From: a virus
Direction: 5' to 3' (one strand)
IMG/VR virus record: IMGVR_UViG_3300045988_150584
DNA length: 64,000 bases
Part shown: in pieces, positions 6,971 through 61,392 of the stretch
Numbering within the stretch: position 1 is the first letter of the stretch
Layout of the letters: the number at the start of each line of letters is the position of its first letter
Program-made: the position numbers and the translations under genes
Notes under the pieces: model-generated
The model's database searches: none
What the model was told of the DNA's origin: nothing
What the model saw: only the letters and a program-made list of their open reading frames with translations

Positions 6971-7249
6971 ATGAACGAGAGAGGGGTGATGCGATTGGTT
7001 GGGTGTCAGTATTGCAAGAAAGCTCGTGCTTTCTGGGCTTACGATAGCCACGGAAGTCCTCACGGAAGCTATCAGAACGCACATATTGAGGTTGGAACGA
7101 ATATCTTCCACGATACCGCTGGGCGGCAAATGCGCATTCGTTACTGTCCTATGTGCGGAAGATCTCTGCTGGATACCTCAGATGCGGGGGGGGTAACACA
7201 AGTGTTGTTTCCATTTTTGCAGCCCCGAAATCGTCTCGCCGTATCCTAA
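6971..7249 (+). CDS. zinc-ribbon protein; C-terminus depends on the length of a G8 tract
   Basis: CQYC...CPMC pairs. G8 at 7186-7193: G7 would stop at once (GGG GGG TAA), G9 gives a different tail. Confidence 0.5.
   Translation: MNERGVMRLVGCQYCKKARAFWAYDSHGSPHGSYQNAHIEVGTNIFHDTAGRQMRIRYCPMCGRSLLDTSDAGGVTQVLFPFLQPRNRLAVS
7186..7193 (+). repeat. G8 homopolymer
   Basis: Counted in sequence. Confidence 0.95.
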
Positions 7250-7271
7250 CTTAAATTAAGGAGTGTATGAA

Positions 7272-7511
7272 ATGGCTAACAAGCGAAACGACAGCGGTTA
7301 CTTCTGGGTTGATAAGGCTTTGACCTGTAACGGCTGTAAGTTCCTCAACTTTTACAAGTGCGGTTGCCGACGCAACCAAGAGCCTGGAAAGGTTCGTCCG
7401 CTTTCGTCCTATACCAATGGCGATGATTATGTCGCGGTTCTCAAGCCGACGGACTGCGATTATCAGAAAGAGCAGAAGCCGCAGGTCAAGGATGATAAGG
7501 AGAACGAGTAA
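7272..7511 (+). CDS. hypothetical Cys-rich protein
   Basis: ORF track 7263..7511; ATG 7272 follows AAGGAG. Confidence 0.55.
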   Translation: MANKRNDSGYFWVDKALTCNGCKFLNFYKCGCRRNQEPGKVRPLSSYTNGDDYVAVLKPTDCDYQKEQKPQVKDDKENE

Positions 7512-7681
7512 TGCCCATATTTGTTCTTCTCGTGTTTGTGGGCGCAGCTCTTTTGTGGCTGCTACTATCCTTTGGGTTTATCCCTATCGGTAAGTTATCC
7601 AACAGACTTCTGAAAGATGCTTCCGATGCAATGTCAAAGGATGAAAAAGATGAAAAAATTGAAGATAAGGAAGAAAAATAA
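7511..7681 (+). CDS. small membrane protein (56 aa) upstream of the SPFH gene
   Basis: Hand translation MPIFVLLVFVGAALLWLLLSFGFIPIG...; ATG overlaps the preceding stop. Below the ORF-track size cutoff. Confidence 0.5.
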   Translation: MPIFVLLVFVGAALLWLLLSFGFIPIGKLSNRLLKDASDAMSKDEKDEKIEDKEEK

Positions 7682-7684
7682 CCT

Positions 7685-8584
7685 ATGAGAAAGAATGGTT
7701 TTGTTGGTGCTATCGTTTTGGCGATCATCATTTTTGGCGGCGTGATTCTCGGTTTTAGCTGCACATCGCGTGTCCCTACCGGTTATGTTGGAGTCGTTTA
7801 TAATATGAACGGCGGCGTTGATGGTGAGGTTCTGAGTCAGGGCTGGCATCTTGTAGCGCCTACAAAGAAAGTAACCACCTATTCTATCGGTTTGGAGCAG
7901 TCCTACCTTACAAGCGAAGAAAAGGGCGATTCTCCGAACGATGAGAGCTTTTCCATTCCGACGTCCGATGGCAAGACTGTCCGTGTAAATCTTGAGTTCT
8001 CTTACAGATTTGACGAAGAGCGTGTTGCTGAAACATTTACGACTTTCAAGGGCAAGTCTGGCGAACAGATCAAGGATACATTTATCAAGCCTAAGATTAT
8101 CGCTTGGACACAGGAAGTCTCCGCCAATTACCCAGTCACGGATATCTTCGGTGACAAGCGCACGGAGATCAACGCCGAGTTGGACACCTATTTGCGCGAC
8201 AAGTTTGATAAGTATGGCATTATTATCGACACGGTAAACTTCACCGATATCAGCGTAGACGATGAAACCGCCGCCGCGATTCAGAAGAAGGTCACTGCGC
8301 AGCAGGAACTTGAACTGGCTAATATCGAAGCTCAGACTGCCAAGGTTCAGGCCGAAAAGGATCGTCAGGTTGCTGAGATCAACGCTGAGAAGCAGATCAT
8401 TGATGCAAATGCAAAGGCTGAGGTAACGCGCATCGAAGCGGAGGCAGAAGCTCAGGCGAACCGTGAGATTGCAGCATCCCTTACCCCGAATCTGATTGAG
8501 AAGATCAAGTACGAGCGCTGGGACGGTGAGCTTCCTACCGTATCTGGTTCTGGAGCAATCGTCAGCATTGACGGCGTTGACTGA
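7685..8584 (+). CDS. SPFH/band-7 (prohibitin/HflC-like) membrane protein
   Basis: N-terminal TM, SPFH-type core and Ala/Glu-rich coiled coil. Confidence 0.85.
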   Translation: MRKNGFVGAIVLAIIIFGGVILGFSCTSRVPTGYVGVVYNMNGGVDGEVLSQGWHLVAPTKKVTTYSIGLEQSYLTSEEKGDSPNDESFSIPTSDGKTVRVNLEFSYRFDEERVAETFTTFKGKSGEQIKDTFIKPKIIAWTQEVSANYPVTDIFGDKRTEINAELDTYLRDKFDKYGIIIDTVNFTDISVDDETAAAIQKKVTAQQELELANIEAQTAKVQAEKDRQVAEINAEKQIIDANAKAEVTRIEAEAEAQANREIAASLTPNLIEKIKYERWDGELPTVSGSGAIVSIDGVD

Positions 8585-8597
8585 TCGGAGGCCGTGA

Positions 8598-8882
8598 ATG
8601 AAGAATAAGGTTCGTGATATCCTTGCGGATAAGAAAGTGAAGCTACAAGAATTGACTGCACAGGCAGAAGCGGCGGTTGATCTTGTAACGAGAACAATTT
8701 CTGGTTTGGAGCTTGTCAACCAAGAAATTGATGATACGGTTGCAGAAATTGACAAGTATTCTGCTGAGCTTGCGTGTACGCGACAGGCGCTCAGCAAGAA
8801 TCGTACACACAATACTGCACTCATTGCAAATTTTGCAAAACTTCTGGAAGTTCCGGAAACAGAAAGTCAGCCAGTAGCCTAA
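8598..8882 (+). CDS. coiled-coil hypothetical protein
   Basis: ORF track 94 aa; GGAGG upstream. Confidence 0.6.
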   Translation: MKNKVRDILADKKVKLQELTAQAEAAVDLVTRTISGLELVNQEIDDTVAEIDKYSAELACTRQALSKNRTHNTALIANFAKLLEVPETESQPVA

Positions 8883-8894
8883 TAGCTACTTGTA

Positions 8895-8950
8895 ACGACG
8901 CGAACAGCAATTTTCTTACATATATTTGGGTTATATCGTACATGCGTCGT
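8895..8950 (+). ncRNA. Stand-alone hairpin element R1 (ACGACGC...GCGTCGT) with ACAGCAAT just inside the stem
   Basis: 7-bp closing stem; interior starts GAACAGCAATTTTCTT. Same design as 9169-9225 and 10563-10626. Confidence 0.35.
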
Positions 8951-8978
8951 GTGAAATAAAACTTGGAGGAATGATGTC

Positions 8979-9158
8979 GTGAAGCTGAAGTTCAATGTTG
9001 GTGATCGTGTTTTTGATAAGAAGTACGGTCATGGTGTGGTTCAGAGAGTTGATGCTGGAAACAGCGAGTTCCCGTATCTTATCTTCTATGAAGATGGTAC
9101 GAAGATCTGGTATAAGGCAAAGGGTGTAACTCTTGCCCCTGCGGAACAGCAGGATTAA
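8979..9158 (+). CDS. hypothetical small protein (59 aa)
   Basis: Hand translation VKLKFNVGDRVFDKKYGHGVV...; GTG 8 nt after GGAGGA. Confidence 0.55.
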   Translation: MKLKFNVGDRVFDKKYGHGVVQRVDAGNSEFPYLIFYEDGTKIWYKAKGVTLAPAEQQD

Positions 9159-9168
9159 GTAAGTTAAA

Positions 9169-9225
9169 AAGACGCAAACAGCAATCTAATAAAATCAAAC
9201 TTGAAATTTGACAGGTAAGCGTCTT
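9169..9225 (+). ncRNA. Hairpin element R2 (AAGACGC...GCGTCTT) with ACAGCAAT
   Basis: 7-bp closing stem; interior starts AAACAGCAATCTAAT. Confidence 0.35.
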
Positions 9226-9237
9226 GTGGTGTGATAT

Positions 9238-9328
9238 GGAGTAGTAATCCTAATTGGTAAGGAAGTAGTTTGCTAAACTACCAGTAATCGGGAACGATGT
9301 GCAGGTTCGAGTCCTGTCTACTCTGCCA
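9238..9328 (+). tRNA. tRNA-Ser (anticodon GCU), class II, encoded CCA
   Basis: Hand fold: acceptor GGAGTAG/CTACTCT, anticodon arm GTAGT-TTGCTAA-ACTAC, long variable arm with ATCG/CGAT stem, T arm GCAGG-TTCGAGT-CCTGT. Confidence 0.85.
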
Positions 9329-9490
9329 ACAAAAGCAAGTAGACAAAGAGAAAGTCTGTTCGCAATCGAAGCCGGCAATCATTGATTATTTTGTCCGCTT
9401 TCTTCACGGTAACTGCATGGCAGTAGTGCGAATACAAAACAGATTGGGTTCTGTTGTATGGGAGTGTGGCCTATACCTTGCTTGATATAT

Positions 9491-9577
9491 GCTGATGTGA
9501 TGGAACTGGCATACATGGGGGACTTAAAATCCCCCGCCGATTGTGGATTATGGGTTCGACTCCCATCATCAGCACCA
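9491..9577 (+). tRNA. tRNA-Leu (anticodon UAA), class II, encoded CCA
   Basis: Acceptor GCTGATG/CATCAGC, anticodon arm GGGGA-CTTAAAA-TCCCC, 15-nt variable region, T arm ATGGG-TTCGACT-CCCAT. Confidence 0.85.
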
Positions 9578-9659
9578 GCCGTTGTGATGATCGGCTTTCA
9601 TCTCCTTCTTTGTGTGACGGTGGGACAGACCACTACTGCCGTGTAAGTGCGGCATAAAT

Positions 9660-9771
9660 GAGAGCGTCTGGATGACAGCTTTAAGGTGTATCGAACGGCG
9701 GACACCTACAGCAATGTTCTTTAAGAAAACTGGAATTTTTCTGCTTACGGGTTCGATTCCCGTAGCTCTCA
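9660..9771 (+). ncRNA. tRNA-like RNA, 112 nt, about 40 extra nt on the 5' side
   Basis: Acceptor GAGAGC(G)/(A)GCTCTC, T arm ACGGG-TTCGATT-CCCGT, candidate anticodon arm GAAAA-CTGGAAT-TTTTC, extra hairpin GGTGT-12 nt-ACACC and CTACAGCAAT motif. Confidence 0.5.
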
Positions 9772-9841
9772 AGAGCCGTTAAATAATCTTCTCGAACTGG
9801 TGAGCAATTCACAACTTCTCTGGGAAGATGTAATAAGAAAT

Positions 9842-9952
9842 GCAGAGGTAGCTCAGTCGGTAGAGCATCAGACAAAAAATGTGCTAAGCATTAGCGCTAA
9901 CAGCAATGTTAAAGGAATCCGAGTGTCGGAGGTTCAAGTCCTCCCCTCTGCG
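9842..9952 (+). tRNA. tRNA-shaped gene whose anticodon stem closes a 45-nt loop (9873-9917)
   Basis: Perfect acceptor GCAGAGG/CCTCTGC, D arm GCTC-AGTCGGTA-GAGC, T arm GGAGG-TTCAAGT-CCTCC, V loop GTGTC, anticodon stem TCAGA/TCCGA. Loop contains CGCTAACAGCAAT. Confidence 0.6.
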
Positions 9953-9959
9953 TCTATAT

Positions 9960-10031
9960 TCGTGCGTAACATCTGCGAAAGTACACCGTGGATGCGATTG
10001 GTATATGTCAGTTCGATTCTGACCGCACGAG
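9960..10031 (+). ncRNA. tRNA-like RNA, 72 nt, no D arm
   Basis: Acceptor TCGTGCG/CGCACGA and T arm GTCAG-TTCGATT-CTGAC; the middle folds as an 8-bp stem (CATCTGCG/CGTGGATG) with a 9-nt loop. Confidence 0.4.
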
Positions 10032-10110
10032 CCTATGCGGTGTCTCACTGAAATAAATGTGGTGTGGGTGAGTAAAATCAGGGCTGTTGAAGAACTTGTA
10101 TCGTAGCGCT

Positions 10111-10180
10111 GCGGTGCATGGAACGTCTGGCAGAAGCAGTTTTACAATACAGAGCTGTTCGAGTCAGCTCCACCGCCCCA
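10111..10180 (+). ncRNA. tRNA-like RNA, 70 nt including encoded CCA, no recognisable D or anticodon arm
   Basis: Acceptor GCGGTG(C)/(C)CACCGC, T arm AGCTG-TTCGAGT-CAGCT, then C-CCA. Confidence 0.4.
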
Positions 10181-10183
10181 AAT

Positions 10184-10298
10184 GCCAGGGTAGCTCAATC
10201 GGTAGAGCGCGTAATAACGCGACTTGTTAAGCCGCTTGCAGCAAATTTCTTTTGGTCTGTTAAACCCGTGGTTGCAGGTTCGATTCCTGCCCCTGGCT
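10184..10298 (+). tRNA. tRNA-Asn (GUU) interrupted by a 42-nt insert (10212-10253) inside the 5' strand of the anticodon stem
   Basis: Removing 10212-10253 gives a 73-nt cloverleaf: GCCAGGG/CCCTGGC, GCTC/GAGC, CGGGT-CTGTTAA-ACCCG, TGGTT, GCAGG-TTCGATT-CCTGC. Confidence 0.65.
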
Positions 10299-10384
10299 CA
10301 ACGTGAATGACTGCTTAAACCATTCTAAACCGACACGACAAAAGGGCAGAAATGGTGACAGCTCGGAGAGACGAGCATCTATAT

Positions 10385-10502
10385 ACGGCAGTGGTGAAGC
10401 GGTAACACAGCAGCCATACAAATGCGAAAAGTGGATTTTCGCTAACAGCTATTTCACAATCCAAGCTGCCAATCGTAGGTTCGATTCCTACCTGCCGTTC
10501 CA
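10385..10502 (+). tRNA. tRNA-shaped gene whose anticodon stem closes a 50-nt loop (10415-10464), encoded CCA
   Basis: Acceptor ACGGCAG/CTGCCGT, D arm GTG-AAGCGGTAA-CAC, anticodon stem GCAGC/GCTGC, V CAATC, T arm GTAGG-TTCGATT-CCTAC. Loop has hairpin GCGAAAA-GTGGA-TTTTCGC and CGCTAACAGCTAT. Confidence 0.6.
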
Positions 10503-10562
10503 CGGGTATAGAGTTGACTTTTCCGTTCAAACAGCCCCTTATAAAGTTGGTAGTAACGGTAT

Positions 10563-10626
10563 GAGACGCACACAGCAATTTGTAAGTAAAGTATTTAGCC
10601 TGATAAGCGGATTTCTTTTGCGTCTC
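10563..10626 (+). ncRNA. Hairpin element R3 (GAGACGCA...TGCGTCTC) with ACAGCAAT
   Basis: 8-bp closing stem; interior starts CACAGCAATTTG and ends ATTTCTTT. Confidence 0.35.
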
Positions 10627-10694
10627 GCCCCTCCTTTAAGACACAGACAGCATCGAATGTGAAATGGTGTCTTGAAGGCTATTTCAAACAAAAA

Positions 10695-10711
10695 GAAATT
10701 AGTTAAACAAT
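10695..10711 (+). promoter_or_regulatory. Leader motif instance GAAATTAGTTAAACAAT
   Basis: Directly upstream of the AAGGAGG RBS of the vWA gene. Confidence 0.4.
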
Positions 10712-10728
10712 TCAAGGAGGAAGAAAGT

Positions 10729-12273
10729 ATGAATGGTTTTATGTCTGCTATGAAAAGCACTTTGAACGATGAGTTCAATGTTTCTGTTACCGAAAACGGT
10801 GCTGTTGGCTATCGTACTACCGGCAAGGAACTATTGGATCTCAACTTTGCCGTTGCATCTCTTCGTAAGGCATCTCCGAGCGATATTGCAAACCGCTTCG
10901 TCAGAGCGTTTTTCGAGGATAAGATTACGGCAATGAAATGGCTGTTCTTTGCGCGTGATGTTCGTGGTGGTCTTGGCGAGCGTCGTTTGTTCCGCATCGT
11001 GTTTCAGCGTATGGCGGAGGAAAATCCGGAATACATCATTCCGCTGATTTCCCTTGTGCCTGAGTATGGACGCTATGACGATTTGTGGTGTTTGCTCGAT
11101 ACAAAGCTTGCACCTAATGTGCTGAACATCATTGCGCAGCAGCTCCGCGATGACATTCAGAATTTGAGCGATGGCAATAGTATTTCTCTTCTCGCAAAGT
11201 GGCTTCCGTCTGCGAATGCTCATTCCGCTGACGCAAAGCGTTATGCTAAGCAGATCTACAAGTTTATGGGCATTTCTGAGCGCGACTACCGTAAGGTGCT
11301 GTCCAAGCTGCGTTCTAAGCTGGATATCGTGGAGAAGAAAATGTCCGAAAAGCGTTGGGATGAGATTGCGTATGAAGCTGTCCCGTCTCGTGCAAATCTG
11401 ATTTACAACTCCGCATTCCTTCGTAACGACGAAGATCGCCGCCGCGATTTCCTGTCCCGTTTGGAAAAGGGCGAAACGAAAATCAATGCGTCTACGCTTT
11501 TCCCGCATGACATTGTTGCAAAGTATAGCGATGGCTGGCGTGGCCTGAAGCCTACGGATAAAACACTGGAAGCTCTTTGGAACGCACTTCCCGATACCGT
11601 AAACGGATGCGGCAATACCATCGTCGTTGCGGATGGCAGCGGCAGTATGACCGTGAATGTCGGTGGCAGCAATGTTACCGCACTGGCTGTTGCAAATGCA
11701 CTTGCGATTTATTTCGCAGAGCGTTCCTCTGGTCAGTTCAAGGACAATTACATTACATTTTCTGAGCATCCTCAGCTCGTCGATTTGAGTAAGGGCAAGA
11801 ATCTCCGCGAGAAGATTCAGATTGCGCTTAAACACAGCGAGGTAGCAAACACAAATATCGAAGCGGTGTTTGACCTTATCTTGACTACGGCAAAGAAAAA
11901 CAACATGGGACAGAGCGATCTTCCTGCAAATATCCTTATTATCTCCGATATGGAGTTTGACTACTGCGCAACATCGAATGGTGGAAGCAGATATAATCGT
12001 GGTCGCGTTGATTCTCGTCTGTTTGACAAGATTGCAAAGCGCTATGAGGATGCTGGGTATAAACTGCCAAGGCTCGTGTTCTGGAACGTGAATAGCCGCA
12101 CGAATACCATCCCTATTAAGGAAAACGAGATGGGAGTTGCGCTTGTAAGCGGTTTTAGTCCGAACATCGCAAAGATGGTGATGAGTGGTCAAACTGATCC
12201 GTATGAGTGTCTGCTTGAAACGCTGAACTCTGATCGCTATAAGCCTATCGGTGACGCTCTGGAAAATCAGTAA
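10729..12273 (+). CDS. DUF2828-like alpha-repeat plus vWA (MIDAS) protein; architecture reminiscent of Ro60/TROVE-vWA
   Basis: ORF track 10672..12273; ATG 10729 after AAGGAGG. FFARDVRGGLGERRLF and YGRYDDLW segments; C-terminal vWA with DGSGS MIDAS motif. Confidence 0.8.
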   Translation: MNGFMSAMKSTLNDEFNVSVTENGAVGYRTTGKELLDLNFAVASLRKASPSDIANRFVRAFFEDKITAMKWLFFARDVRGGLGERRLFRIVFQRMAEENPEYIIPLISLVPEYGRYDDLWCLLDTKLAPNVLNIIAQQLRDDIQNLSDGNSISLLAKWLPSANAHSADAKRYAKQIYKFMGISERDYRKVLSKLRSKLDIVEKKMSEKRWDEIAYEAVPSRANLIYNSAFLRNDEDRRRDFLSRLEKGETKINASTLFPHDIVAKYSDGWRGLKPTDKTLEALWNALPDTVNGCGNTIVVADGSGSMTVNVGGSNVTALAVANALAIYFAERSSGQFKDNYITFSEHPQLVDLSKGKNLREKIQIALKHSEVANTNIEAVFDLILTTAKKNNMGQSDLPANILIISDMEFDYCATSNGGSRYNRGRVDSRLFDKIAKRYEDAGYKLPRLVFWNVNSRTNTIPIKENEMGVALVSGFSPNIAKMVMSGQTDPYECLLETLNSDRYKPIGDALENQ

Positions 12274-12656: not shown

Positions 12657-12967
12657 TGCCAGATGTTGTTATGACGAATCATAGTGTGAAGCGAACAAAA
12701 GAAAGAATTGGACTAAGCAAGAAAATCGCAGATAAGAACGCGCAGAGAGCGCTTGAATACGGTGTTACGCACTCTGAGGCAAAAGGTGGCTTATGTCGGT
12801 ATCTTGATAAACTGTATCTGTCGAATGGTAATGCAAATAATGTTCGCGTTTATCACAGATATGTATATCTCTTTCGTGGGAACACGCTTTTGACAATCAT
12901 TCCATTACCAAACAAATTCTATGCTCTGGCGGACAAACTTCAAAAGCAGAAAGGCGAAATAGAATGA
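12656..12967 (+). CDS. hypothetical protein
   Basis: ORF track 103 aa; start overlaps the preceding stop. Confidence 0.6.
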   Translation: MPDVVMTNHSVKRTKERIGLSKKIADKNAQRALEYGVTHSEAKGGLCRYLDKLYLSNGNANNVRVYHRYVYLFRGNTLLTIIPLPNKFYALADKLQKQKGEIE

Positions 12968-13920
12968 GAATTGTAAAAACACATACTGGAAAAATTTATG
13001 TTGATAAGGATAAGAAACTGGAATTTTTAACGGTTGGCGACTATGGCAAGGAAAACAATATTAAAGCAAGTTTTCTTGGTTTGAACAAAGAAATCAACGG
13101 TGTTCAACATCATACGGTTGACCTGGCGGATAAGTGGGTTGCTACTATCAGCACTCAGAAAGGTTGTCCGATGAATTGCCAGTTTTGTGATTGCCCGAAG
13201 TATGGATTTCACGGAAATGTATCTCGTGAGGAACTGGCTTATGAAATTGAGACAATTCTTGCAAACGAACGAGTAACACATACTAATCGTTTCAATGTTC
13301 ACTTTGCTCGCATGGGTGAGCCTACATTCAACGATGCCGTTCTTCCGTTTGCTGAATTTGATTTGAAGCCGCTGGTTAAGCGGTTTATTACGGCAGATAC
13401 AATTCATCCTGTTGTTTCAACTATGCTTCCGAAAGCAAATGCCAATTTGAAGTCATTCATCATGGAATGGTGTCGCATTAAGAACAGTGTGTACAGTGGA
13501 GAAGCTGGTCTGCAATTTAGCATCAATTCGACGAATCAGGCGCAGCGTAATGAACAGTTTAACGGAAAGAGCTTATCCTTATCAGAAATTTCAAGTCTCG
13601 CATCTAAGCTTCCTACGCCGGTCGGTAGAAAATACACATTGAATTTTGCGGTAACGGCTGACACGATTTTGGATGCGGTGGAGCTTGGGAAGCTGTTCGA
13701 TAAGGAAAAGTTTATCGTAAAAATTACGCCGATTCACCAGACAAATGCAGCCATTAAGAATGGATTTGATGTGACCACGGAATATACTGACTACGATGTT
13801 TACCGCAAGTTTGAAGATCCACTTGTTGCTGCTGGATGGGATGTCATTGTGTTCGTACCGAGCGAGGAAGAAGATAGCGACCGTATTACTTGCGGGAATG
13901 CCTTAATTTCAGATAAGTGA
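12964..13920 (+). CDS. radical-SAM enzyme resembling the RlmN/Cfr RNA-methylating family
   Basis: ISTQKGCPMNCQFCDCPKYGFHGN (CxxxCxxC), RMGEPTFN, C-terminal DRITCGNAL. Pattern recalled from RlmN (SSQVGC..C.FC, MGMGEP, AACGQL). Confidence 0.65.
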   Translation: MRIVKTHTGKIYVDKDKKLEFLTVGDYGKENNIKASFLGLNKEINGVQHHTVDLADKWVATISTQKGCPMNCQFCDCPKYGFHGNVSREELAYEIETILANERVTHTNRFNVHFARMGEPTFNDAVLPFAEFDLKPLVKRFITADTIHPVVSTMLPKANANLKSFIMEWCRIKNSVYSGEAGLQFSINSTNQAQRNEQFNGKSLSLSEISSLASKLPTPVGRKYTLNFAVTADTILDAVELGKLFDKEKFIVKITPIHQTNAAIKNGFDVTTEYTDYDVYRKFEDPLVAAGWDVIVFVPSEEEDSDRITCGNALISDK

Positions 13921-15494: not shown

Positions 15495-16574
15495 GTGATT
15501 AAGAAGGTTGATCGGAAAAATCGGTTTGTAGCAATGTTTAATCCTACAACTGGCTTCTATGCTCGTAGTGGTGTGATTGATGAGAATGGGCATGACACCG
15601 GCGTAGATCCGTTTATGACAGCATTCCCAGAGCTGATTGATGTCGGTGTGATGGGTCATTGTGTCCACGGAGCAAGCGGTCTTTGCTTTAAGTCTGGCGT
15701 TCAGTGTTATCAGAACGGACTAAAGACAAAAGAACCAAATATGACGCTTGAAAATTTCAAACGCATTGTTGATGAATGTAGGGGTAAAACATTCCAGCTC
15801 GCGCTTGGTGGTCGTGGTGATGTTGACCAGCACGAAAATTTTGCTGAGATTTTGCAGTATTGCAGGGAAAACAATATCGTGCCGAATTTCACTTCTTCAG
15901 GGCTTGGCTTTACAGATGAGATTGTAGATCTGTGTAAAAGATACTGTGGTGCAGTAGCAATCTCCTGGTATCGCCAGAAGCATACATACCGTGCGATTCA
16001 GATGCTTTTGGATGCTGGCGTAAAAACGAACATTCATTATGTTCTTGGAAACAATTCCATTGAAGAAGCAATTATGCGGCTAAAAAATAATGGTTTTCCT
16101 GCTGGCATTAACGCAGTGATTTTCCTTCTTCACAAACCCGTTGGACTCGGCAGCGAAGAGAATGTTTTGCAGATGGATAACCCGCTCGTAAGACAGTTCT
16201 TTGAGATTGTGGATATGCAGAAATTCAATTTCAAAATTGGCTTCGATTCATGTTCTATTCCAGCCGTTTTGAATCTGACTCACAATATCGACCACGATAG
16301 TATTGATACTTGCGAGGGCGGCAGATGGAGCATGTATATCACAAGCGACATGAAAGCTTTGCCCTGTAGTTTCGATAATCAAGAGCTGCGTTGGGCATTT
16401 GATATTAGCAATTCCAGTATCGAAGAAGCTTGGAATAGTCCGCAGTTTGAAAGATTTAGAAGTCATTTCAGAAATTCTTGCCCGAATTGTCAGTGCCAAC
16501 ACGCTTGTATGGGCGGTTGTCCGATTCGTCCGCAAGTAGTTTTGTGCGATAGGGCGGAAAAGGAGCTGTATTAA
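15495..16574 (+). CDS. radical-SAM/SPASM-domain-like protein with non-canonical N-terminal Cys spacing
   Basis: C-terminal CPNCQCQHACMGGCP cluster. The N-terminal triad is CVHGASGLCFKSGVQC rather than CxxxCxxC. GTG start after AAGGAGGG. Confidence 0.65.
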   Translation: MIKKVDRKNRFVAMFNPTTGFYARSGVIDENGHDTGVDPFMTAFPELIDVGVMGHCVHGASGLCFKSGVQCYQNGLKTKEPNMTLENFKRIVDECRGKTFQLALGGRGDVDQHENFAEILQYCRENNIVPNFTSSGLGFTDEIVDLCKRYCGAVAISWYRQKHTYRAIQMLLDAGVKTNIHYVLGNNSIEEAIMRLKNNGFPAGINAVIFLLHKPVGLGSEENVLQMDNPLVRQFFEIVDMQKFNFKIGFDSCSIPAVLNLTHNIDHDSIDTCEGGRWSMYITSDMKALPCSFDNQELRWAFDISNSSIEEAWNSPQFERFRSHFRNSCPNCQCQHACMGGCPIRPQVVLCDRAEKELY

Positions 16575-20490: not shown

Positions 20491-21930
20491 ATGTACGCAG
20501 CATATGTAACTCGTATTAAGAATTTGCGCAAACATTCAAACGCGGATCGACTTCTCTGCGGTGAATGTTTTGGCAATACGGTAATTGTGGGCTTGGATAC
20601 AAAGCCAGAAGAGCTGGGTGTCTATTTCCCCGTAGATGGCAAGCTTGGCACTGAGTATGCGGTGAAGAACGACCTGCTTCGCCGTAAGGATGAGAACGGT
20701 AAGCCTGCTGGTGGTTATCTCGATCCTGAAAAGCGTAATATTAAGGCGTTGAAGCTTCGTGGCGAAAAGAGCGATGGCTTGTTTATGCCATTGTCCAGTT
20801 TGAGTGGGTTCACAGATATTGCAAAGCTCCGTGATGGCGATGTAATTACCATTTTGAATGGTGTTACAATTTGTGAGAAGTATATCCCCCATCGTAAGAA
20901 GAGTACCATTATGGTTGGGGGGGGTAGGACTCGTAAGCATCACGATCCTGTTGCTCCGCTCTTTGCGGAACATGCTGACACGGAACAGCTCGCATATAAC
21001 CTCAGCGCATTTCACCCAGGCGATCTTGTTGAGATTACTTTGAAAATGCACGGCACATCTCAGCGAACCGGATATCTACCAATGCTTAAAGGATATAAGA
21101 AGACATTGCTTGATAAGCTCCTACATCGCATTGGTTCTCCGATTTATAATTGGGGATATGTAACTGGTACTCGTCGTGTTGTCTTGGATGATTTTGACGG
21201 TGGCTTTTATGGTAGCAATGCTTTCCGTGAACAGCATAGCAAGGTTTTTGAAGGTAAGCTGCATAAGGGCGAAACCGTGTACTATGAAGTCGTTGGCTTT
21301 ACGCAAGACAAGCAGCCTATTATGGCATCTTGCGACAATAAAAAAGTCGGTGATAAGGAATTTGTTAAACAATACGGCGAAAAGACAGTGTTTAGCTATG
21401 GTTGCTATCCAGACGGTGTAAAGGAAGTAACAAATCCGAAAATTACACACGCAACAGTAATGATTGGCGATACCTCTTTTACAGCAAATGAGATTACGGA
21501 ATATGAATCTGCTCCGCAGTCTGATTTCTATGTGTATCGAATGACAATGACAAATGAGGATGGCGATGTTGTTGAATACACACCAGACTTTATGCGTTAT
21601 CGTTGTGAACAGATGGGCGTTAAGTGTGTTCCGCTATTTGCTCGATTCATTATTCCGGATTACATTCAGCTTCCTGATGCTGTTGGGTCTCCGATGGCTG
21701 TCAATGCTGGCGAATATGTCAAGGAAATTGCTGAAAACTTCTATGATGGTGCAGACCCGATTGGTAAGTCGCATGTCCGCGAGGGCGTTGTTTGCCGTAT
21801 CGTAAACCGCCCAAAGTTTACAGCATATAAGCACAAGAATTTTGCATTCAAGGTGCTTGAGGGAATTGTAAAGGATGTTGCGTCTGCTCCGGACATGGAA
21901 GAAGCGCAAGATGATGTAAGCGTTGCATAA
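20491..21930 (+). CDS. ATP-dependent RNA ligase (Rnl2/Rnl5-like, N-terminal OB-like domain)
   Basis: Ligase motif I KMHGTS, EGVVCRIV, YKHKNFAFK. In-frame G8 tract at 20917-20924. Confidence 0.75.
   Translation: MYAAYVTRIKNLRKHSNADRLLCGECFGNTVIVGLDTKPEELGVYFPVDGKLGTEYAVKNDLLRRKDENGKPAGGYLDPEKRNIKALKLRGEKSDGLFMPLSSLSGFTDIAKLRDGDVITILNGVTICEKYIPHRKKSTIMVGGGRTRKHHDPVAPLFAEHADTEQLAYNLSAFHPGDLVEITLKMHGTSQRTGYLPMLKGYKKTLLDKLLHRIGSPIYNWGYVTGTRRVVLDDFDGGFYGSNAFREQHSKVFEGKLHKGETVYYEVVGFTQDKQPIMASCDNKKVGDKEFVKQYGEKTVFSYGCYPDGVKEVTNPKITHATVMIGDTSFTANEITEYESAPQSDFYVYRMTMTNEDGDVVEYTPDFMRYRCEQMGVKCVPLFARFIIPDYIQLPDAVGSPMAVNAGEYVKEIAENFYDGADPIGKSHVREGVVCRIVNRPKFTAYKHKNFAFKVLEGIVKDVASAPDMEEAQDDVSVA
20917..20924 (+). 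repeat. G8 homopolymer (in frame, Gly-Gly-Gly)
   Basis: Counted in sequence. Confidence 0.95.
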
Positions 21931-22050
21931 CGACATTACGCATCTTATCCATCAATGTCGAACGGTGTGCTGGAATATATACGGATTTGGTAGCTCCAGC
22001 ACACTGCCGACATATTGTCAGAGATTGTATTTTGAAAGAGAGGTGCTGTG

Positions 22051-22872
22051 ATGAGTGACAGAGAAAAGATTATGAAGCGGCTTTCTGAACACCTCGAAGC
22101 AGTAAGAGACAAACACCCTGAGTGGGTTGGTATTTTTCTTCAAGGTTCACAAAACTACAACTTAGATTATGAGGGCAGCGATATTGATTCCAAGCTGATC
22201 GTCCTCCCTTCGTTTGAAGATTTTGTTTTGAACAAGAGACCGTATAGCTACACACACATCATGGAAAACGATGAACATGTAGATGTTAAGGATATTCGTC
22301 TGATGCTCGATTGCTTCAAAAAGCAGAATGTAAATTTTGTTGAGATTCTTTTTACCCCGTACCGTATCTTGAATCCAAAGTACGAAGCTTTGTTTCAGCC
22401 GATTCTTGATATTGCAGAGAGAGTCGGTCGATATAACAACTATGCTGCATTGAACTGCATGGTCGGAATGGCGCTTGAAAAGCAAAAGGCATTGTGCCAC
22501 CCATATCCTGCAACAAAAGACAAGATTGATAAGTACGGTTTCGACAGCAAACAGTATCATCATATCGAGCGTCTTTATGAGTTCATGCAGCGTTGGCTTA
22601 ATGGCGAGCCATATCGTGATTGCCTCATTTCTAAGCAGAGAGAACGTCTTAGAGAAATCAAGCTTTATATTAACTGCGATCTTACAACGGCGCAGGCCAA
22701 TTCGGACAGAATTGTATCTGAGATGAAGTCAATCAAGGACACTTATATGCAGCAGAATCCTGTCGTGATAGATCGTGAGGTTGATTCAGTTTTCAATAAG
22801 GTTTTGCTTGATTTATTTAAGTTTAATTTCCAGTGTGAGATTGGTAACGGCTCGCCTAATAAAAAGGAGTAA
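22051..22872 (+). CDS. Pol-beta-superfamily nucleotidyltransferase (RlaP-like, RNA-ligase-associated)
   Basis: GIFLQGSQNYNLDYEGSDIDSKLIV (GS...DxD). Confidence 0.7.
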   Translation: MSDREKIMKRLSEHLEAVRDKHPEWVGIFLQGSQNYNLDYEGSDIDSKLIVLPSFEDFVLNKRPYSYTHIMENDEHVDVKDIRLMLDCFKKQNVNFVEILFTPYRILNPKYEALFQPILDIAERVGRYNNYAALNCMVGMALEKQKALCHPYPATKDKIDKYGFDSKQYHHIERLYEFMQRWLNGEPYRDCLISKQRERLREIKLYINCDLTTAQANSDRIVSEMKSIKDTYMQQNPVVIDREVDSVFNKVLLDLFKFNFQCEIGNGSPNKKE

Positions 22873-22876
22873 GAAT

Positions 22877-23791
22877 ATGTCTATCTTTTTTATGATGGTA
22901 GGTCTTCCGTACAGCGGAAAATCTGTTTATGCGGAGGGGCTGCGAGAGAAGTTCGGTGCAGAGATTCATTCCAGCGATGCAATTCGAGCAGAGATCCTTG
23001 GAGATGTACAGGATCAGACAAACAATCAGATTGTTTTTGATACTCTGCACAAGCGAGTAATTTCTGATTTGTCTGCTGGTAAAAATGTAATTTACGATGC
23101 GACGAATATCAATTACAAGCGGCGTATTGATATGCTGAATCGCTTGTCGAAGGTGAAGTGTCAGAAAGTCTGTATCGTTATGGCGACACCTTTTCACGAA
23201 TGTGAAGAGCGTAGCAAGCATCGTGAGCGGGTTGTCCCACACGAGGTTCTTGTGCGTATGTATAAGAATTTCTGGCTTCCGTATTGGTATGAGGGGTGGG
23301 ACGCAATCGAGCTTGTTTATCCAGATAATTTTGAGCCGTACAGTGTAAGTGATTTATTTAATCGTGATGGAGGGCTGAATAGCTTTGAGCAGGACAATCC
23401 ACATCATACTTTCACGGTTGGGCATCATTGTATCGCTACATATGGGCTTGTTTCTGATGGAAGCACAGAGCTTCAGGAGGCTGCTCTTCTTCATGATATC
23501 GGAAAGCCTTTCACAAAAAGCTTTGTGAATAGCAAGGGCGAAACAACAGAGATTGCTCATTATTATGAACATCAGCATGTTTCCGCCTATGATAGCTTAT
23601 TCTACTCAAATCCGAGTTTGAATCGGCTGTATATCGCAAATATCATCCAGTGGCATATGCGTCCGTTTGAGCTTGAACGAGACCCCCATTCTGGCAAAGC
23701 GCAGAAGCGGTTCAAAAAGCTTGTCGGCAATAAGCTTTATTCAGATGTGATGAAGCTTCATGCCGCTGATATCGAAGCAAAAGGAACTTGA
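22877..23791 (+). CDS. polynucleotide kinase (P-loop) fused to HD phosphohydrolase
   Basis: MMVGLPYSGKS Walker A, DATNINYKRR, then HH...LLHDIGKP. ATG 22877 after AAGGAG (track ORF starts 22775). Confidence 0.8.
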   Translation: MSIFFMMVGLPYSGKSVYAEGLREKFGAEIHSSDAIRAEILGDVQDQTNNQIVFDTLHKRVISDLSAGKNVIYDATNINYKRRIDMLNRLSKVKCQKVCIVMATPFHECEERSKHRERVVPHEVLVRMYKNFWLPYWYEGWDAIELVYPDNFEPYSVSDLFNRDGGLNSFEQDNPHHTFTVGHHCIATYGLVSDGSTELQEAALLHDIGKPFTKSFVNSKGETTEIAHYYEHQHVSAYDSLFYSNPSLNRLYIANIIQWHMRPFELERDPHSGKAQKRFKKLVGNKLYSDVMKLHAADIEAKGT

Positions 23792-58842: not shown

Positions 58843-59244
58843 TTATTTGCCCTCCTTTACTCCAATCAGATTTGCAATATACCGTAGTACATCAATATCG
58901 GCATTATAAAAATCATGATTCCAAAGCCATGTATCGTCGCACTCTTGGCGACGGTATCTTTGACAAATGGAATCGTCTGCTACCTTTTCACAACGCTCAT
59001 CGTGCTTCGTATCTTTTTTCTCAAGCGCCGTCTGGATACTGCTTGTGAGTTTACCTCTGAGCATTCCATTACCATCGTCATTTCTGGCAAAAAACTGGTG
59101 TGCATTTCTGGAAAATACACTGCAAATTTGCTTGCCATTGTAATAAATAACATTACCGACAGACTCGCATTCGCTCATAGCTGGAATATTCACACTATCG
59201 CAAACAGAAGTGTGTCTAAATCTTCTATGTACAATGTACTGCAT
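58843..59244 (-). CDS. hypothetical protein
   Basis: ORF track 133 aa; overlaps the RT 3' end by 20 nt. Confidence 0.55.
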   Translation of the reverse strand: MQYIVHRRFRHTSVCDSVNIPAMSECESVGNVIYYNGKQICSVFSRNAHQFFARNDDGNGMLRGKLTSSIQTALEKKDTKHDERCEKVADDSICQRYRRQECDDTWLWNHDFYNADIDVLRYIANLIGVKEGK

Positions 59245-60406: not shown

Positions 60407-60638
60407 AAATAGTTATTCGCCTTTCGTACAGTTGTAATATAGAGTGCGCCTAAACTGCTTTGCCTTGACACATGAAATAGGATTAAGCACAATATCCTCC
60501 CACCATGCAAGAAGCGTCCGTGCAAAAGCATCAAAAGAGCGGTTTTGGGTTTTATCCACGGGAAACATTTCTCCTTTCGCAAAGGTCTCCTTCATCCTCA
60601 AAAGGACTACCGTATTTGACCATACCTAAAAGGGTTGC

Positions 60639-60764
60639 GAAATCGGGGGCGAGGCCATTGGAATTCCTGGCGTTGTTGTTGTTCGCGTTGCCGTTCGTGT
60701 TCACATTGCAGAAGTTGTTGCTGTTGTTGTAGTACGGAGAACGCTCCCACCAATTCGCAGTGGA
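60639..60764 (-). repeat. DGR template repeat (TR)
   Basis: Aligns with 61402-61527 at a fixed offset of 763. Reads NWWERSPYYNNSNNFCNVNTNGNANNNNARNSNG on the - strand (AAC-rich). Confidence 0.9.
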
Positions 60765-60857
60765 CAGCGGGAATCCCCAAAGCCGACAGGTTTTACAGAA
60801 ATGCACCCAATTTTTATGATCTGGTAAGCAAAGCCCAATTTTCGTTGGTAGATATAA

Positions 60858-61313: not shown

Positions 61314-61356
61314 AAATAGAACTCCTTTTTATATTTTGAAAAACAAAAAGAAACCC

Positions 61357-61372
61357 GCCCTCTTTCGAGGGC
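61357..61372 (-). promoter_or_regulatory. GC hairpin GCCCTC-GAAA-GAGGGC downstream of VR (DGR homing hairpin and/or terminator)
   Basis: 6-bp stem, GAAA loop on the coding strand, followed by a T run on the - strand. Confidence 0.6.
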
Positions 61373-61392
61373 AGGATTCTCTTGATATGGGA

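What the first reader, a model, noticed from the sequence alone, without database searches (positions are those of the whole stretch)
10184..10298. tRNA-Asn(GUU) interrupted by a 42-nt insert inside the anticodon stem (between nt 28 and 29)
Seen: the acceptor (GCCAGGG/CCCTGGC), D arm, T arm and 5-nt variable loop are canonical. Deleting exactly 10212-10253 joins CG to GGT and creates CGGGT-CTGTTAA-ACCCG. This is a perfect anticodon arm with U33, GUU and A37, in a 73-nt tRNA. The insert begins with a local hairpin (CGCGT-AATA-ACGCG) and ends in GCAGCAAATTTCTTTT.

Established: short introns at non-canonical positions are known from archaeal tRNAs, which use a BHB endonuclease plus ligase. I know of no bacterial or phage equivalent.

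Inference: this is either a disrupted pseudogene or a precursor that needs protein-mediated cutting and rejoining. The same phage encodes PNK-HD and an RNA ligase (20491-23791), which are healing-and-sealing activities that could join halves. No endonuclease is identified.
Basis: partly seen in the sequence, partly recalled or inferred. Interest (0 to 1): 0.75.

Follow-up and report, generated by a model that had tools for sequence, protein, structure and literature searches.

The report
tRNA-Asn carrying a Ro60-linked RNA module
The interrupted tRNA-Asn is real and conserved; its 42-base insert is one copy of an apparently undescribed RNA module found in many gut-bacterial phages next to a gene for a Ro60-like RNA-binding protein, so it is either a new kind of tRNA-shaped partner RNA or a new kind of phage tRNA intron.

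Summary
Window 10184-10298 is a tRNA (Rfam 48.4 bits). Removing exactly 10212-10253 gives a canonical 73-nt tRNA-Asn(GUU).

It is not a pseudogene. All close relatives keep the insert, and no uninterrupted copy was found in IMG/VR or JGI metagenomes.

The insert is a conserved module: AU-rich linker, covarying 7-bp hairpin, 2 nt, (A/G)CAGCAA(A/U), AU-rich tail. At least 46 distinct phage or prophage tRNAs carry it after nt 28, mostly with anticodons ending in U36.

Six other RNAs in the same 1.7-kb cluster also carry it:
- two tRNA-like genes where it replaces the anticodon loop;
- one where it sits in the D-arm region;
- three small stem-closed elements, two of which hold an anticodon-like hairpin.

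The cluster always lies just upstream of a DUF2828/DUF7788 gene whose AlphaFold model matches only Ro60 structures over its full length. In 80 genome loci found through the protein alone, the motif is 8.5-fold enriched in the 2 kb upstream and strongly strand-biased.

Best reading (about 0.5): a Y-RNA-like tRNA mimic whose module docks the Ro60-like protein. Main rival (about 0.3): a true protein-dependent intron sealed by the phage's Rnl2-like ligase. No search found prior description.

The parts
10184..10211 (+). Exon 1 of the tRNA-Asn body: acceptor 5' strand GCCAGGG, D arm, G26, C27, G28
   Evidence: Rfam tRNA alignment; sequence; ARAGORN on the joined exons
10212..10253 (+). The 42-nt insert (module) between nt 28 and 29
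   Evidence: Deleting it gives a canonical tRNA-Asn. It is conserved in all close relatives. The same anatomy is seen across the family.
10212..10218 (+). 5' AU-rich linker TAATAAC
   Evidence: Family anatomy: linkers of 6-13 nt, A/U-rich
10219..10235 (+). 7-bp hairpin GCGACTT-GTT-AAGCCGC. It has one A.C mismatch here and is perfect in relative L008.
   Evidence: Covariation over 26 modules: 174 of 182 cells paired, 3-5 pair types per position, 0 of 2000 strand shuffles reach this; RNAfold
10238..10245 (+). Motif GCAGCAAA. It is ACAGCAA(A/T) in most relatives.
   Evidence: Alignment. Logo: positions 2-5 (CAGC) and 7 (A) are invariant in 26 of 26 modules, and positions 1 and 6 are A in 25 of 26. 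Motif matches are clustered in the window.
10246..10253 (+). 3' AU-rich tail TTTCTTTT abutting nt 29
   Evidence: Tails of 7-10 nt, variable in sequence, across the family
10254..10298 (+). Exon 2: nt 29-31 GGT, loop CTGTTAA (GUU), ACCCG, variable loop TGGTT, T arm, acceptor 3' strand, discriminator T
8895..8950 (+). Stand-alone element S1: 7-bp closing stem ACGACGC/GCGTCGT, motif at 8904-8911, anticodon-arm-like hairpin ATATA-TTTGGGT-TATAT
9169..9225 (+). Stand-alone element S2: closing stem AAGACGC/GCGTCTT, motif at 9178-9185, hairpin TCAAA-CTTGAAA-TTTGA
9660..9771 (+). tRNA-like RNA c1: acceptor stem, T arm and a full anticodon arm (GGA). The module (motif at 9708-9715) sits in the D-arm region.
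   Evidence: orthologs in L041, L174, L245 and L256
9842..9952 (+). tRNA-like RNA c2: the module (hairpin 9881-9897, motif 9900-9907) replaces the anticodon loop. The stem TCAGA/TCCGA covaries in relatives.
   Evidence: Rfam 52.5 bits; no U33 loop obtainable; relatives
10385..10499 (+). tRNA-like RNA B, on my own reading related to tRNA-Gly: the module (hairpin 10424-10442, motif ACAGCTAT 10445-10452) lies between the strands of the stem GCAGC/GCTGC. The loop remnant is AATCCAA, without U33.
   Evidence: Rfam 48.6 bits
10563..10626 (+). Stand-alone element S3 in the leader of the Ro60-like gene: closing stem GAGACGC/GCGTCTC, motif at 10572-10579
   Evidence: The nearest motif lies 50-200 nt upstream of the gene start in 53 of 73 genome loci.
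10729..12273 (+). DUF2828/DUF7788 protein: a divergent Ro60 (helical ring plus vWA domain with a DxSxS MIDAS motif)
   Evidence: Pfam; phrog_850 'RNA-binding protein'; AlphaFold2 pLDDT 76.5. The Foldseek top 10 are all Ro60, E 3e-8 to 4e-6, over 510-575 aligned columns. MIDAS residues are invariant.
7685..8584 (+). SPFH/Band 7 gene, the conserved upstream neighbour of the RNA cluster
   Evidence: Pfam; synteny
20491..21930 (+). ATP-dependent RNA ligase, with weak similarity to T4 Rnl2
   Evidence: phrog_968 at E 9e-64; PDB 1s68/2hvq at E 2e-3; Pfam RNA_ligase at 23.5 bits, below its cut-off of 27
22048..22872 (+). Nucleotidyltransferase between the ligase and the kinase
   Evidence: phrog_388 at E 6.5e-11
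22775..23791 (+). Polynucleotide-kinase-like P-loop domain fused to an HD phosphohydrolase
   Evidence: Pfam AAA_33 and HD; phrog_505

Best explanation
The 115-nt gene is an intact, selected composite RNA. It is a tRNA-Asn(GUU) body with a 42-nt module built into the 5' strand of its anticodon stem. The module is an AU-rich linker, a 7-bp hairpin, 2 nt, (A/G)CAGCAA(A/U) and an AU-rich tail.

The module is the common element of a family of RNAs encoded just upstream of a divergent Ro60 gene (DUF2828/DUF7788) in phages and prophages, mostly of Clostridia. I read it as the docking site for that Ro60-like protein: the hairpin binds the protein surface and the conserved single strand is bound next to it.

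On this reading the Asn RNA is a Y-RNA-like tRNA mimic. In the most likely functional form the module stays in. The ring protein holds the module while the tRNA body, with its exposed and authentic Asn anticodon arm, acts as tether or bait. The partners would be factors that recognise tRNAs in the tRNA-cleavage and repair conflict: the phage ligase, nucleotidyltransferase and kinase-HD, or host anticodon nucleases or PNPase.

Shown: the anatomy, the conservation, the covariation, the family, the genomic linkage and the Ro60-like fold.
Inferred: protein binding, retention of the module and the tether or bait role.
For: Conservation
- The insert is kept in all 11 close relatives, with an invariant anticodon arm.

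A defined module
- It has the same order of parts in more than 25 diverged copies. The hairpin covaries and the motif core is invariant.

Non-tRNA contexts. In these, excision could not make a tRNA.
- There are three stem-closed elements. These are circular permutations of 'module plus anticodon arm'.
- There are two tRNA-like genes in which the module replaces the anticodon loop. Their stems covary, but U33 is lost in the window clade.

Linkage to DUF2828
- 15 loci found by RNA pattern alone carry the gene within about 1-3 kb.
- In 80 genome loci found by protein alone, the motif is at 1.45 per kb in the 2 kb upstream versus 0.17 per kb elsewhere.
- In that upstream region it occurs 208 times on the gene strand and 14 times on the other.
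- The nearest copy is 50-200 nt from the start codon in 53 of 73 loci.

The protein
- The DUF2828 model matches only Ro60 structures over its full length.

Precedent
- Ro60 genes in bacteria and phages are flanked by Y RNAs. These can contain tRNA-like domains or a stem-closed loop with a short conserved motif (PMC4201824, PMC12135203).

Features that fit a decoder poorly
- A GCU anticodon sits on a short-variable-arm body in two lineages. One of these phages also has a normal tRNA-Ser(GCU).
- The discriminator base of the Asn copies is U, C, G or A.
- Anticodons switch on orthologous bodies.
Against: - Exact removal of the insert gives a flawless canonical tRNA in every one of 46 unique sequences with the insert after nt 28. 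The loops match the isoacceptor (for example CUGUCAC for Asp, G37 with Pro) and the anticodon set is coherent. This is what a spliced decoder would predict.
- Known Y RNAs do not keep an anticodon loop.
- Binding of the module to the Ro60-like protein is untested.
- The Rfam YrlA model scores only 20 bits, and that hit spans two adjacent genes.
- A ligase, a nucleotidyltransferase and a kinase-HD that could finish a splicing reaction are encoded nearby.
- The hairpins used for the covariation count were picked by eye.
Confidence: 0.5

Rival explanations
1. It is a true protein-dependent tRNA intron. The pre-tRNA is cut in the AU-rich linker and tail, by a host or phage endonuclease, and trimmed back to the helix. 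That leaves a nick between nt 28 and 29 inside the anticodon stem. The phage Rnl2-like ligase seals the nick, after end-healing by the kinase-HD if needed. The Ro60-like protein binds the intron as chaperone, marker or recruiter of exonuclease. The product is a functional tRNA-Asn.
For: - All 13 representatives become ARAGORN-valid tRNAs after exact excision.
- 46 unique sequences have the insert after nt 28, with perfect 2+3-bp stems, U33 and a purine at 37.
- The anticodons are of kinds phages commonly supply: Asn, Lys, Thr, Ile, Arg, Asp and Pro.
- They overlap the Lys/Thr/Asn set cleaved by the PARIS nuclease AriB in the anticodon stem (PMC12409363).
- The ligase shows weak similarity to T4 Rnl2. 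From my own knowledge, that enzyme prefers nicks in duplex RNA.
- Ligase, nucleotidyltransferase and kinase-HD lie in the same genome, and next to the cluster in L245 and L053.
Against: - No endonuclease candidate was identified.
- No intron-less allele exists anywhere searched.
- The same module sits where excision cannot yield a tRNA: the stand-alone elements and the loop-replacing copies without U33.
- A GCU anticodon on a type-I body, and variable discriminators, argue against ordinary charging.
- Ro60 proteins are not known to act in splicing.
Confidence: 0.3
2. The motif is a transcript-processing or expression signal, such as an RNase site or a phage promoter-like element. It chops the cluster into pieces. 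The 'interrupted' genes would then yield tRNA halves or half-based RNAs rather than either a full RNP RNA or a spliced tRNA.
For: - The motif recurs at regular places along a 1.7-kb gene-free cluster, always on one strand.
- A weak YrlA-like hit spans the 3' half of one tRNA-like gene and the 5' half of the Asn gene.
Against: - No sigma-70-like promoters or terminators accompany the motif.
- The motif always sits in a fixed structural setting: helix, 2 nt, motif, AU tail. In the stand-alone elements both sides are held together by a closing stem. This fits a folded unit better than a cut site.
Confidence: 0.08
3. The insert is a small self-cleaving or self-splicing ribozyme.
For: A conserved hairpin plus an invariant single-stranded core, set inside a structured RNA, is compatible with catalysis.
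Against: - At 42 nt it is shorter than any self-splicing intron I know of.
- No Rfam ribozyme or intron family matches at E up to 1.
- The distance from the motif to the 3' junction varies (10-13 nt from ACAGC), and junction sequences are not conserved.
Confidence: 0.04
4. It is a pseudogene, or a tRNA disrupted by a selfish DNA insertion.
For: Standard tRNA finders miss the gene.
Against: - The position is conserved and the exon complementarity intact across many diverged lineages.
- There are no terminal inverted repeats and no target duplication.
- The orientation is fixed relative to transcription.
- There is no decay in any of 11 close relatives.
Confidence: 0.03

Closest known systems
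YrlA-type bacterial and phage Y RNAs bound by Ro60/Rsr (Chen et al. 2014, PMC4201824), and the rsr-yrlBA-rtcBA RNA-repair operon (PMC7790460)
   Same: - Non-coding RNAs with an authentic tRNA-like fold are encoded directly beside a Ro60-type gene.
- There are several RNAs per locus.
- An RNA ligase and end-healing enzymes lie in the same genomic unit.
   Different: - The protein is a DUF2828/DUF7788 family member, detectable as Ro60 only by fold.
- The RNA is not circularly permuted: its ends are at the acceptor stem.
- The putative protein-binding element is a side hairpin plus (A/G)CAGCAA, not a terminal stem.
- The anticodon arm is kept intact.
- The Rfam YrlA model does not match (20 bits against a gathering score of 69).
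- The ligase is ATP-dependent, not RtcB.
Thermus phage phiLo Ro60 with Yrl1 and Yrl2 (Hu et al. 2025, PMC12135203)
   Same: - A phage Ro60 gene has small RNAs immediately upstream.
- Those RNAs are a 5'-3' closing stem around a loop holding a short conserved motif. This is the layout of elements S1-S3 here.
- It is the best structural match to the window protein (9l5y, 9kop).
   Different: - The motif there is CGAA; here it is (A/G)CAGCAA.
- No tRNA-embedded copies are reported there.
- Sequence identity in the structural alignment is only 16-18%.
Archaeal non-canonical tRNA introns removed at bulge-helix-bulge motifs
   Same: A short intervening sequence lies outside the canonical 37/38 position, and exact removal restores a tRNA.
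   Different: - Both junctions are on one strand at a single helical step, so no bulge-helix-bulge can be drawn.
- The host is bacterial.
- No splicing endonuclease was found in the ORFs scanned.
- The insert carries its own conserved sequence motif.
Group I introns in bacterial and phage tRNA genes
   Same: An intervening sequence in the anticodon arm of a bacterial-type tRNA.
   Different: From my own knowledge, those introns are over 200 nt, sit in the loop and are self-splicing ribozymes. Here the insert is 42 nt, sits in the stem and has no Rfam intron match.
Phage T4 tRNA repair (Pnkp plus Rnl1) and phage replacement tRNAs that evade anticodon nucleases (T5 against PARIS/AriB, PMC12409363)
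   Same: - Kinase-phosphatase and RNA ligase genes sit in a phage that also carries its own tRNAs.
- The tRNA types involved (Asn, Lys, Thr) overlap the AriB target set.
- AriB cuts the anticodon stem at 40|41, opposite the insert site.
   Different: - Nothing shows that these RNAs are cleaved or repaired.
- The T4 and T5 tRNAs are uninterrupted.
- The link is circumstantial.

Membership tests
tRNA (Rfam RF00005) | Cloverleaf scoring above the family gathering score | tested here: met
   48.4 bits against a gathering score of 29, full model 1-71, with a local insertion
tRNA (Rfam RF00005) | Contiguous 5-bp anticodon stem and 7-nt loop in the gene | tested here: not met
   A 42-nt insert lies between nt 28 and 29. 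The feature is met only after deleting 10212-10253.
tRNA (Rfam RF00005) | Aminoacylation and use in decoding | not testable with these tools
   Needs tRNA-seq or charging assays
Archaeal/eukaryal protein-spliced tRNA intron | Bulge-helix-bulge: two 3-nt bulges on opposite strands, 4 bp apart, at the junctions | tested here: not met
   Both junctions flank one step (28|29) of the same strand
Archaeal/eukaryal protein-spliced tRNA intron | A splicing endonuclease (EndA/Sen family) is encoded or available | tested here: inconclusive
   None was seen among about 25 window ORFs scanned with Pfam or PHROGs. The rest of the genome and the host were not searched.
Group I intron | Conserved P1-P9 ribozyme core (Rfam Intron_gpI) | tested here: not met
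   No hit at gathering score or at E up to 1; the insert is only 42 nt
Known small self-cleaving ribozymes (hammerhead, twister, pistol, hatchet and others) | A match to the family covariance model | tested here: not met
   No Rfam match at E up to 1 in 8850-10750
YrlA / Y RNA | Encoded next to a Ro60 (TROVE plus vWA) gene | tested here: met
   The gene at 10729-12273 is Ro60-like by fold. Adjacency is conserved in nearly all related loci.
YrlA / Y RNA | Contains a tRNA-like domain | tested here: met
YrlA / Y RNA | Match to the Rfam YrlA model (RF02553) with its permuted topology and terminal Ro-binding stem | tested here: not met
   20.4 bits against a gathering score of 69. The hit spans the 3' half of one gene and the 5' half of the Asn gene.
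YrlA / Y RNA | Binds Ro60 in vivo or in vitro | not testable with these tools
   Needs EMSA, RIP or CLIP
Ro60 (for the partner protein) | Helical-repeat ring plus C-terminal vWA domain with a MIDAS motif | tested here: met
   - The Foldseek top 10 are all Ro60, over 510-575 aligned columns, E 3e-8 to 4e-6 and TM 0.34-0.50.
- The DxSxS residues are invariant.
- Model quality is moderate: pLDDT 76.5.
Ro60 (for the partner protein) | Sequence-level match to TROVE or Ro60 | tested here: not met
   No PDB sequence hit. Pfam assigns DUF2828 and DUF7788, not TROVE.

The most novel reading that the evidence does not exclude
Phages of gut Clostridia carry a genuine, protein-dependent tRNA splicing system unknown in bacteria. 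A 42-52-nt intron marked by a hairpin plus (A/G)CAGCAA sits in the anticodon stem after nt 28, or at 31/32. A Ro60-like ring protein recognises it. It is removed by cutting and trimming. The resulting nick in the stem is sealed by an Rnl2-like ligase, giving phage-controlled maturation of tRNAs such as Asn, Lys, Thr, Ile and Arg.

A related untested variant is that the unspliced RNPs act as anticodon-arm decoys for host anticodon nucleases.
Probability: 0.3. Interest if true: 0.92.

Novelty: new variant of a known kind. Interest (0 to 1): 0.8.

Why it matters
The finding links three things that had no connection.
- DUF2828 is a very abundant protein family of unknown function.
- The Ro60/Y-RNA system is known from animals and some bacteria.
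- A set of phage tRNA genes is invisible to standard tRNA finders.

If the RNAs are Ro60-like partners, they define a new Y-RNA class. It keeps a real anticodon arm, which gives a direct handle on what Ro60-type particles do with tRNA-shaped RNAs during phage infection.

If they are spliced, this would be the first protein-dependent tRNA intron system in the bacterial world. It would also be a natural duplex-nick substrate for Rnl2-type ligases.

Either way, phage tRNA inventories in gut viromes are undercounted. Prophage-bearing cultured strains exist (Dysosmobacter segnis BX15, Hominicoprocola fusiformis, Clostridiales CCNA10), so the question is directly testable.

Tried and rejected
- Default ARAGORN misses the gene. 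With intron mode it mis-calls the interrupted genes as Pro, Leu and Trp, because it allows introns only in the loop.
- A brute-force deletion scan scored with ARAGORN was too permissive to be informative. I replaced it with strict stem and loop rules.
- The GenBank phage collection holds no relative of the cluster. Only ordinary tRNA matches came back.
- The 16-mer scan returned mostly chance AT-rich matches and had to be filtered by tRNA context.
- I first read the insert hairpin loops (TTGTTAA, CTGATAA) as anticodon-loop mimics. The wider family shows only short G-initial loops, so I dropped that idea.
- Pairing between the 5' linker and the 3' tail to close the insert appears only in the L145 group, not generally.
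- MAFFT could not keep the hairpin strands in register, so the pair counts were made on a hand-built alignment.
- I searched for intron-less alleles:
  - The exact Asn junction is absent from IMG/VR.
  - One JGI hit is an unrelated tRNA.
  - Degenerate junction patterns found only ordinary tRNA-Phe, Met, Arg and similar genes outside DUF2828 loci.
- A simple promoter and terminator scan of the cluster found nothing above shuffled expectation.
- Sequence search of DUF2828 against PDB found nothing. Only the fold comparison revealed Ro60.
- For the two loop-replacing RNAs (c2 and B), I could not find any excision that yields a U33 loop in the window clade.
Full report
**1. The observation**

- Default ARAGORN finds only tRNA-Ser(GCU) at 9238-9328 and tRNA-Leu(UAA) at 9491-9577.
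- The Rfam tRNA covariance model also hits 10184-10298 (48.4 bits), 9842-9952 (52.5 bits) and 10385-10499 (48.6 bits). Each hit carries a large local insertion in the anticodon arm.
- For the Asn gene, exon 1 is 10184-10211, the insert is 10212-10253 and exon 2 is 10254-10298.
- Joining the exons gives CGGGT-CTGTTAA-ACCCG. ARAGORN then calls a 73-nt tRNA-Asn(GUU) with default settings.

**2. It is not a pseudogene**

- Eleven relatives with 96-100% identical neighbouring protein all keep the insert. Their few substitutions leave the anticodon arm untouched. One of them (L008) repairs the single mismatch in the insert hairpin.
- The exact spliced junction is absent from 2.9 million IMG/VR contigs.
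- It occurs once in JGI metagenomes, in an unrelated tRNA.

**3. The insert is a member of a family**

A phage whose neighbouring protein is only 68% identical (L011) has a tRNA-Thr(UGU) with a 42-nt insert at the same position. That insert ends in the same ACAGCAAATTTCTTTT.

Pattern scans of IMG/VR, with scripts, recovered many more copies. The anatomy is constant:
- a 5' AU-rich linker of 6-13 nt;
- a hairpin of 7-9 bp with a 3-4-nt loop;
- 0-3 nt of spacer;
- ACAGCAA(A/T);
- an AU-rich tail of 7-10 nt that abuts nt 29.

Over 26 modules, 174 of 182 hairpin cells are standard pairs, with 3-5 pair types per position. None of 2000 strand shuffles reaches this. The caveat is that the hairpins were chosen by eye. 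In the motif, positions 2-5 (CAGC) and 7 (A) are invariant in 26 of 26. Positions 1 and 6 are A in 25 of 26, and position 8 is T or A in 23 of 26.

All 13 representatives become ARAGORN-valid 72-74-nt tRNAs after exact excision.

A general detector that does not fix the junction sequence gave these counts:
- 46 unique tRNAs with the insert after nt 28;
- 7 more that are ambiguous by one base;
- 11 with the insert at 31/32.

A Lachnospiraceae subtype reads GAGCAGG|...GGAGCTTTGTCAAAAGCTCTTGCAGCAAT...|GGACTnnnAATCCCC.

Anticodons are mostly NNU: GUU, UUU, CUU, UGU, GGU, GAU, UAU, UCU, CCU and GCU. Asp GUC (with its characteristic loop CUGUCAC) and Pro UGG (with G37) also occur.

**4. The same module occurs where it cannot be an intron**

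The exact motif ACAGCAAT occurs 7 times in the 64-kb window, all on the + strand. Five of these lie in 8904-10579. Variant copies lie in the Asn gene (GCAGCAAA) and in RNA B (ACAGCTAT).

Stand-alone elements:
- S1, S2 and S3 (8895-8950, 9169-9225, 10563-10626) have a 7-bp closing stem whose 5' strand is followed by 2 nt and the motif.
- In S1 and S2 the motif is followed about 8-9 nt later by a hairpin with a canonical anticodon-type loop (TTTGGGT, CTTGAAA). S3's hairpin is degenerate.
- Topologically they are circular permutations of 'module plus anticodon arm'.
- In relatives the three loop-centre bases change while the loop frame stays: GUU versus GAU, UGA versus UUU.

Larger tRNA-like RNAs:
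- RNA c1 (9660-9771) has an acceptor stem, a T arm and a full anticodon arm. The module sits in the D-arm region.
- RNAs c2 (9842-9952) and B (10385-10499) have the module in place of the anticodon loop.
- Their 5-bp stems covary among relatives. For c2: TCAGA/TCCGA, ACGGA/TCTGT, ATAGT/ACTAT. For B: GCAGC/GCTGC, GCGGC/GCCGC, GCGGT/ACCGC.
- In some lineages the last 7 nt before the 3' strand form a canonical loop: AUGGGGA, AUUCCAA, AUUUCAA.
- In the window clade position 33 is A or C. It even varies between close relatives.

**5. The partner gene**

- The gene right after the cluster (10729-12273) is DUF2828 plus DUF7788 and is phrog_850 'RNA-binding protein'.
- It has no sequence match in PDB.
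- An AlphaFold2 model from a 41-sequence alignment reached pLDDT 76.5 and pTM 0.64.
- The ten best PDB matches to that model are all Ro60: Thermus phage phiLo, Xenopus and Deinococcus. They run over the full length, at E 3e-8 to 4e-6. After them come only isolated vWA domains.
- The MIDAS residues are invariant.

**6. Linkage**

- Of the loci found purely by RNA pattern, 15 carry a DUF2828 homolog (37-75% identity) within about 1-3 kb. Many have an SPFH gene upstream. L245 has the ligase next door, and L053 has the kinase-HD.
- Conversely, I took 80 genome loci found purely by the protein. These are Oscillospiraceae, Lachnospiraceae and other Clostridia, plus some Bacteroidota and Spirochaetota, and they include cultured isolates.
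- In those loci ACAGC[AT]A occurs at 1.45 per kb in the 2 kb upstream on the gene strand, against 0.17 per kb elsewhere.
- In that upstream region it occurs 208 times on the gene strand and 14 times on the other.
- The nearest copy lies 50-200 nt before the start codon in 53 of 73 loci.
- Synteny (SPFH, a gene-free gap of about 1.3 kb, then DUF2828) holds in abundant gut contigs.

**7. What it most likely is**

Ro60 genes in bacteria and phages are known to be flanked by Y RNAs.
- YrlA contains a tRNA-like domain (PMC4201824).
- The phiLo phage Yrl RNAs are stem-closed loops with a short motif, encoded upstream of the gene (PMC12135203).

The present RNAs fit that logic but not those families. 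The Rfam YrlA model gives only 20 bits, and that hit bridges two genes.

I therefore read the module as the docking element for the Ro60-like protein, and the Asn gene as a tRNA-shaped partner RNA.

Whether the module is later removed is open.

For removal:
- Every copy with the insert after nt 28 restores a flawless, isoacceptor-appropriate tRNA.
- The phage encodes a ligase with weak T4 Rnl2 similarity, a nucleotidyltransferase and a kinase-HD.
- An excised stem insert would leave a nick in a duplex. From my own knowledge, that is the preferred Rnl2 substrate.

Against removal:
- The stand-alone and loop-replacing copies cannot give a tRNA.
- A GCU anticodon sits on a short-variable-arm body, in phages that also have a normal tRNA-Ser(GCU).
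- The discriminator bases vary.
- There is no intron-less allele.
- No endonuclease candidate was found.

I put retention at about 0.5 and splicing at about 0.3.

**8. Context in the tRNA conflict**

The PARIS nuclease AriB cleaves tRNA-Lys(UUU), Thr(UGU) and Asn(GUU) in the anticodon stem between nt 40 and 41. Phage T5 supplies resistant copies of exactly these tRNAs (PMC12409363). The copies inserted after nt 28 are enriched for the same kind of tRNA, and the insert lies opposite that cleavage site. This is suggestive of a role in evading or baiting such nucleases, but it is circumstantial.

**9. Prior knowledge**

- Eight full-text searches found no description of interrupted phage tRNAs of this kind, of the motif, or of DUF2828 as a Ro60 relative.
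- Rfam 15 has no matching family.
- I rate it a new variant of a known kind (Ro60 with tRNA-like partner RNAs). There is a substantial chance that it also contains a categorically new tRNA intron system.

Noticed in passing
window 59225-63480 (- strand): A reverse transcriptase gene (59225-60406) slightly overlaps a full-length Rfam RT-2 RNA (60399-60624, 137 bits). Next to it is a 695-aa protein with a C-terminal DUF6273 domain. This looks like a diversity-generating retroelement cassette.
   Followed up: no
window 9960-10033: A 74-nt tRNA-like RNA (c3) has a 7-bp acceptor-type stem (TCGTGCG/CGCACGA) and a canonical T arm. It has no recognisable D arm or anticodon arm and no CAGCAA motif. It is conserved in L174 and L245.
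   Followed up: partly
window 10057-10180: Another tRNA-like element (c4) has a T arm and an encoded CCA end. It is present in the window and in L006, L007, L009, L010 and L012. It is absent from L002-L005 and L008, where c3 directly abuts the Asn gene. It is therefore a recent insertion or deletion within the cluster.
   Followed up: partly
window 10127-10233: A weak Rfam YrlA match (20.4 bits, E 0.32) is made from the T arm of c4 plus the D arm of the Asn gene. It is probably an artefact of two adjacent tRNA-like genes. It would matter if transcripts were cut inside the inserts.
   Followed up: no
window 22048-22872: A nucleotidyltransferase gene (phrog_388) sits between the RNA ligase and the kinase-HD. 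It could add back nucleotides before ligation.
   Followed up: no
window 10184-10298 versus L165, L231, L245 and L174: Orthologous bodies (GCCAGGG...CCCTGGC and close variants) carry different anticodons in different phages: GUU, UUU, GCU and UCU. The hairpin loops of the stand-alone elements also change their three central bases between close relatives.
   Followed up: partly
window 10563-10626; leaders in L254, L256, L268 and others: A motif-bearing stem-closed element lies in the 5' leader of the Ro60-like gene in most loci. This would allow the protein to regulate its own mRNA.
   Followed up: partly
L044, minus-strand coordinates about 7047-7790: A GIY-YIG-type homing endonuclease ORF is inserted inside the RNA cluster of a low-GC, 206-kb phage contig. 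That contig has the same cluster-then-DUF2828 layout. Its interrupted tRNA would have an 8-nt anticodon loop (CTGGTTAA).
   Followed up: no
L013-L017, about 2623-2698 (L013-L015) or 1870-1947 (L016, L017): Phages whose DUF2828 is 40% identical carry a tRNA with anticodon CUA (an amber suppressor). This hints at TAG recoding. Their clusters hold stand-alone motif elements but no interrupted tRNAs.
   Followed up: no
window 12964-13920 and 15495-16574: Radical-SAM-like and SPASM-domain genes lie downstream of the Ro60-like gene. They are conserved in relatives. Their function is unknown.
   Followed up: no
L312 (Breznakiella homolactica chromosome) and L319 (Treponema MAG): Spirochaete loci also have DUF2828 preceded by tRNA-like genes carrying the hairpin-ACAGCAA module. 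The system therefore crosses phyla.
   Followed up: no
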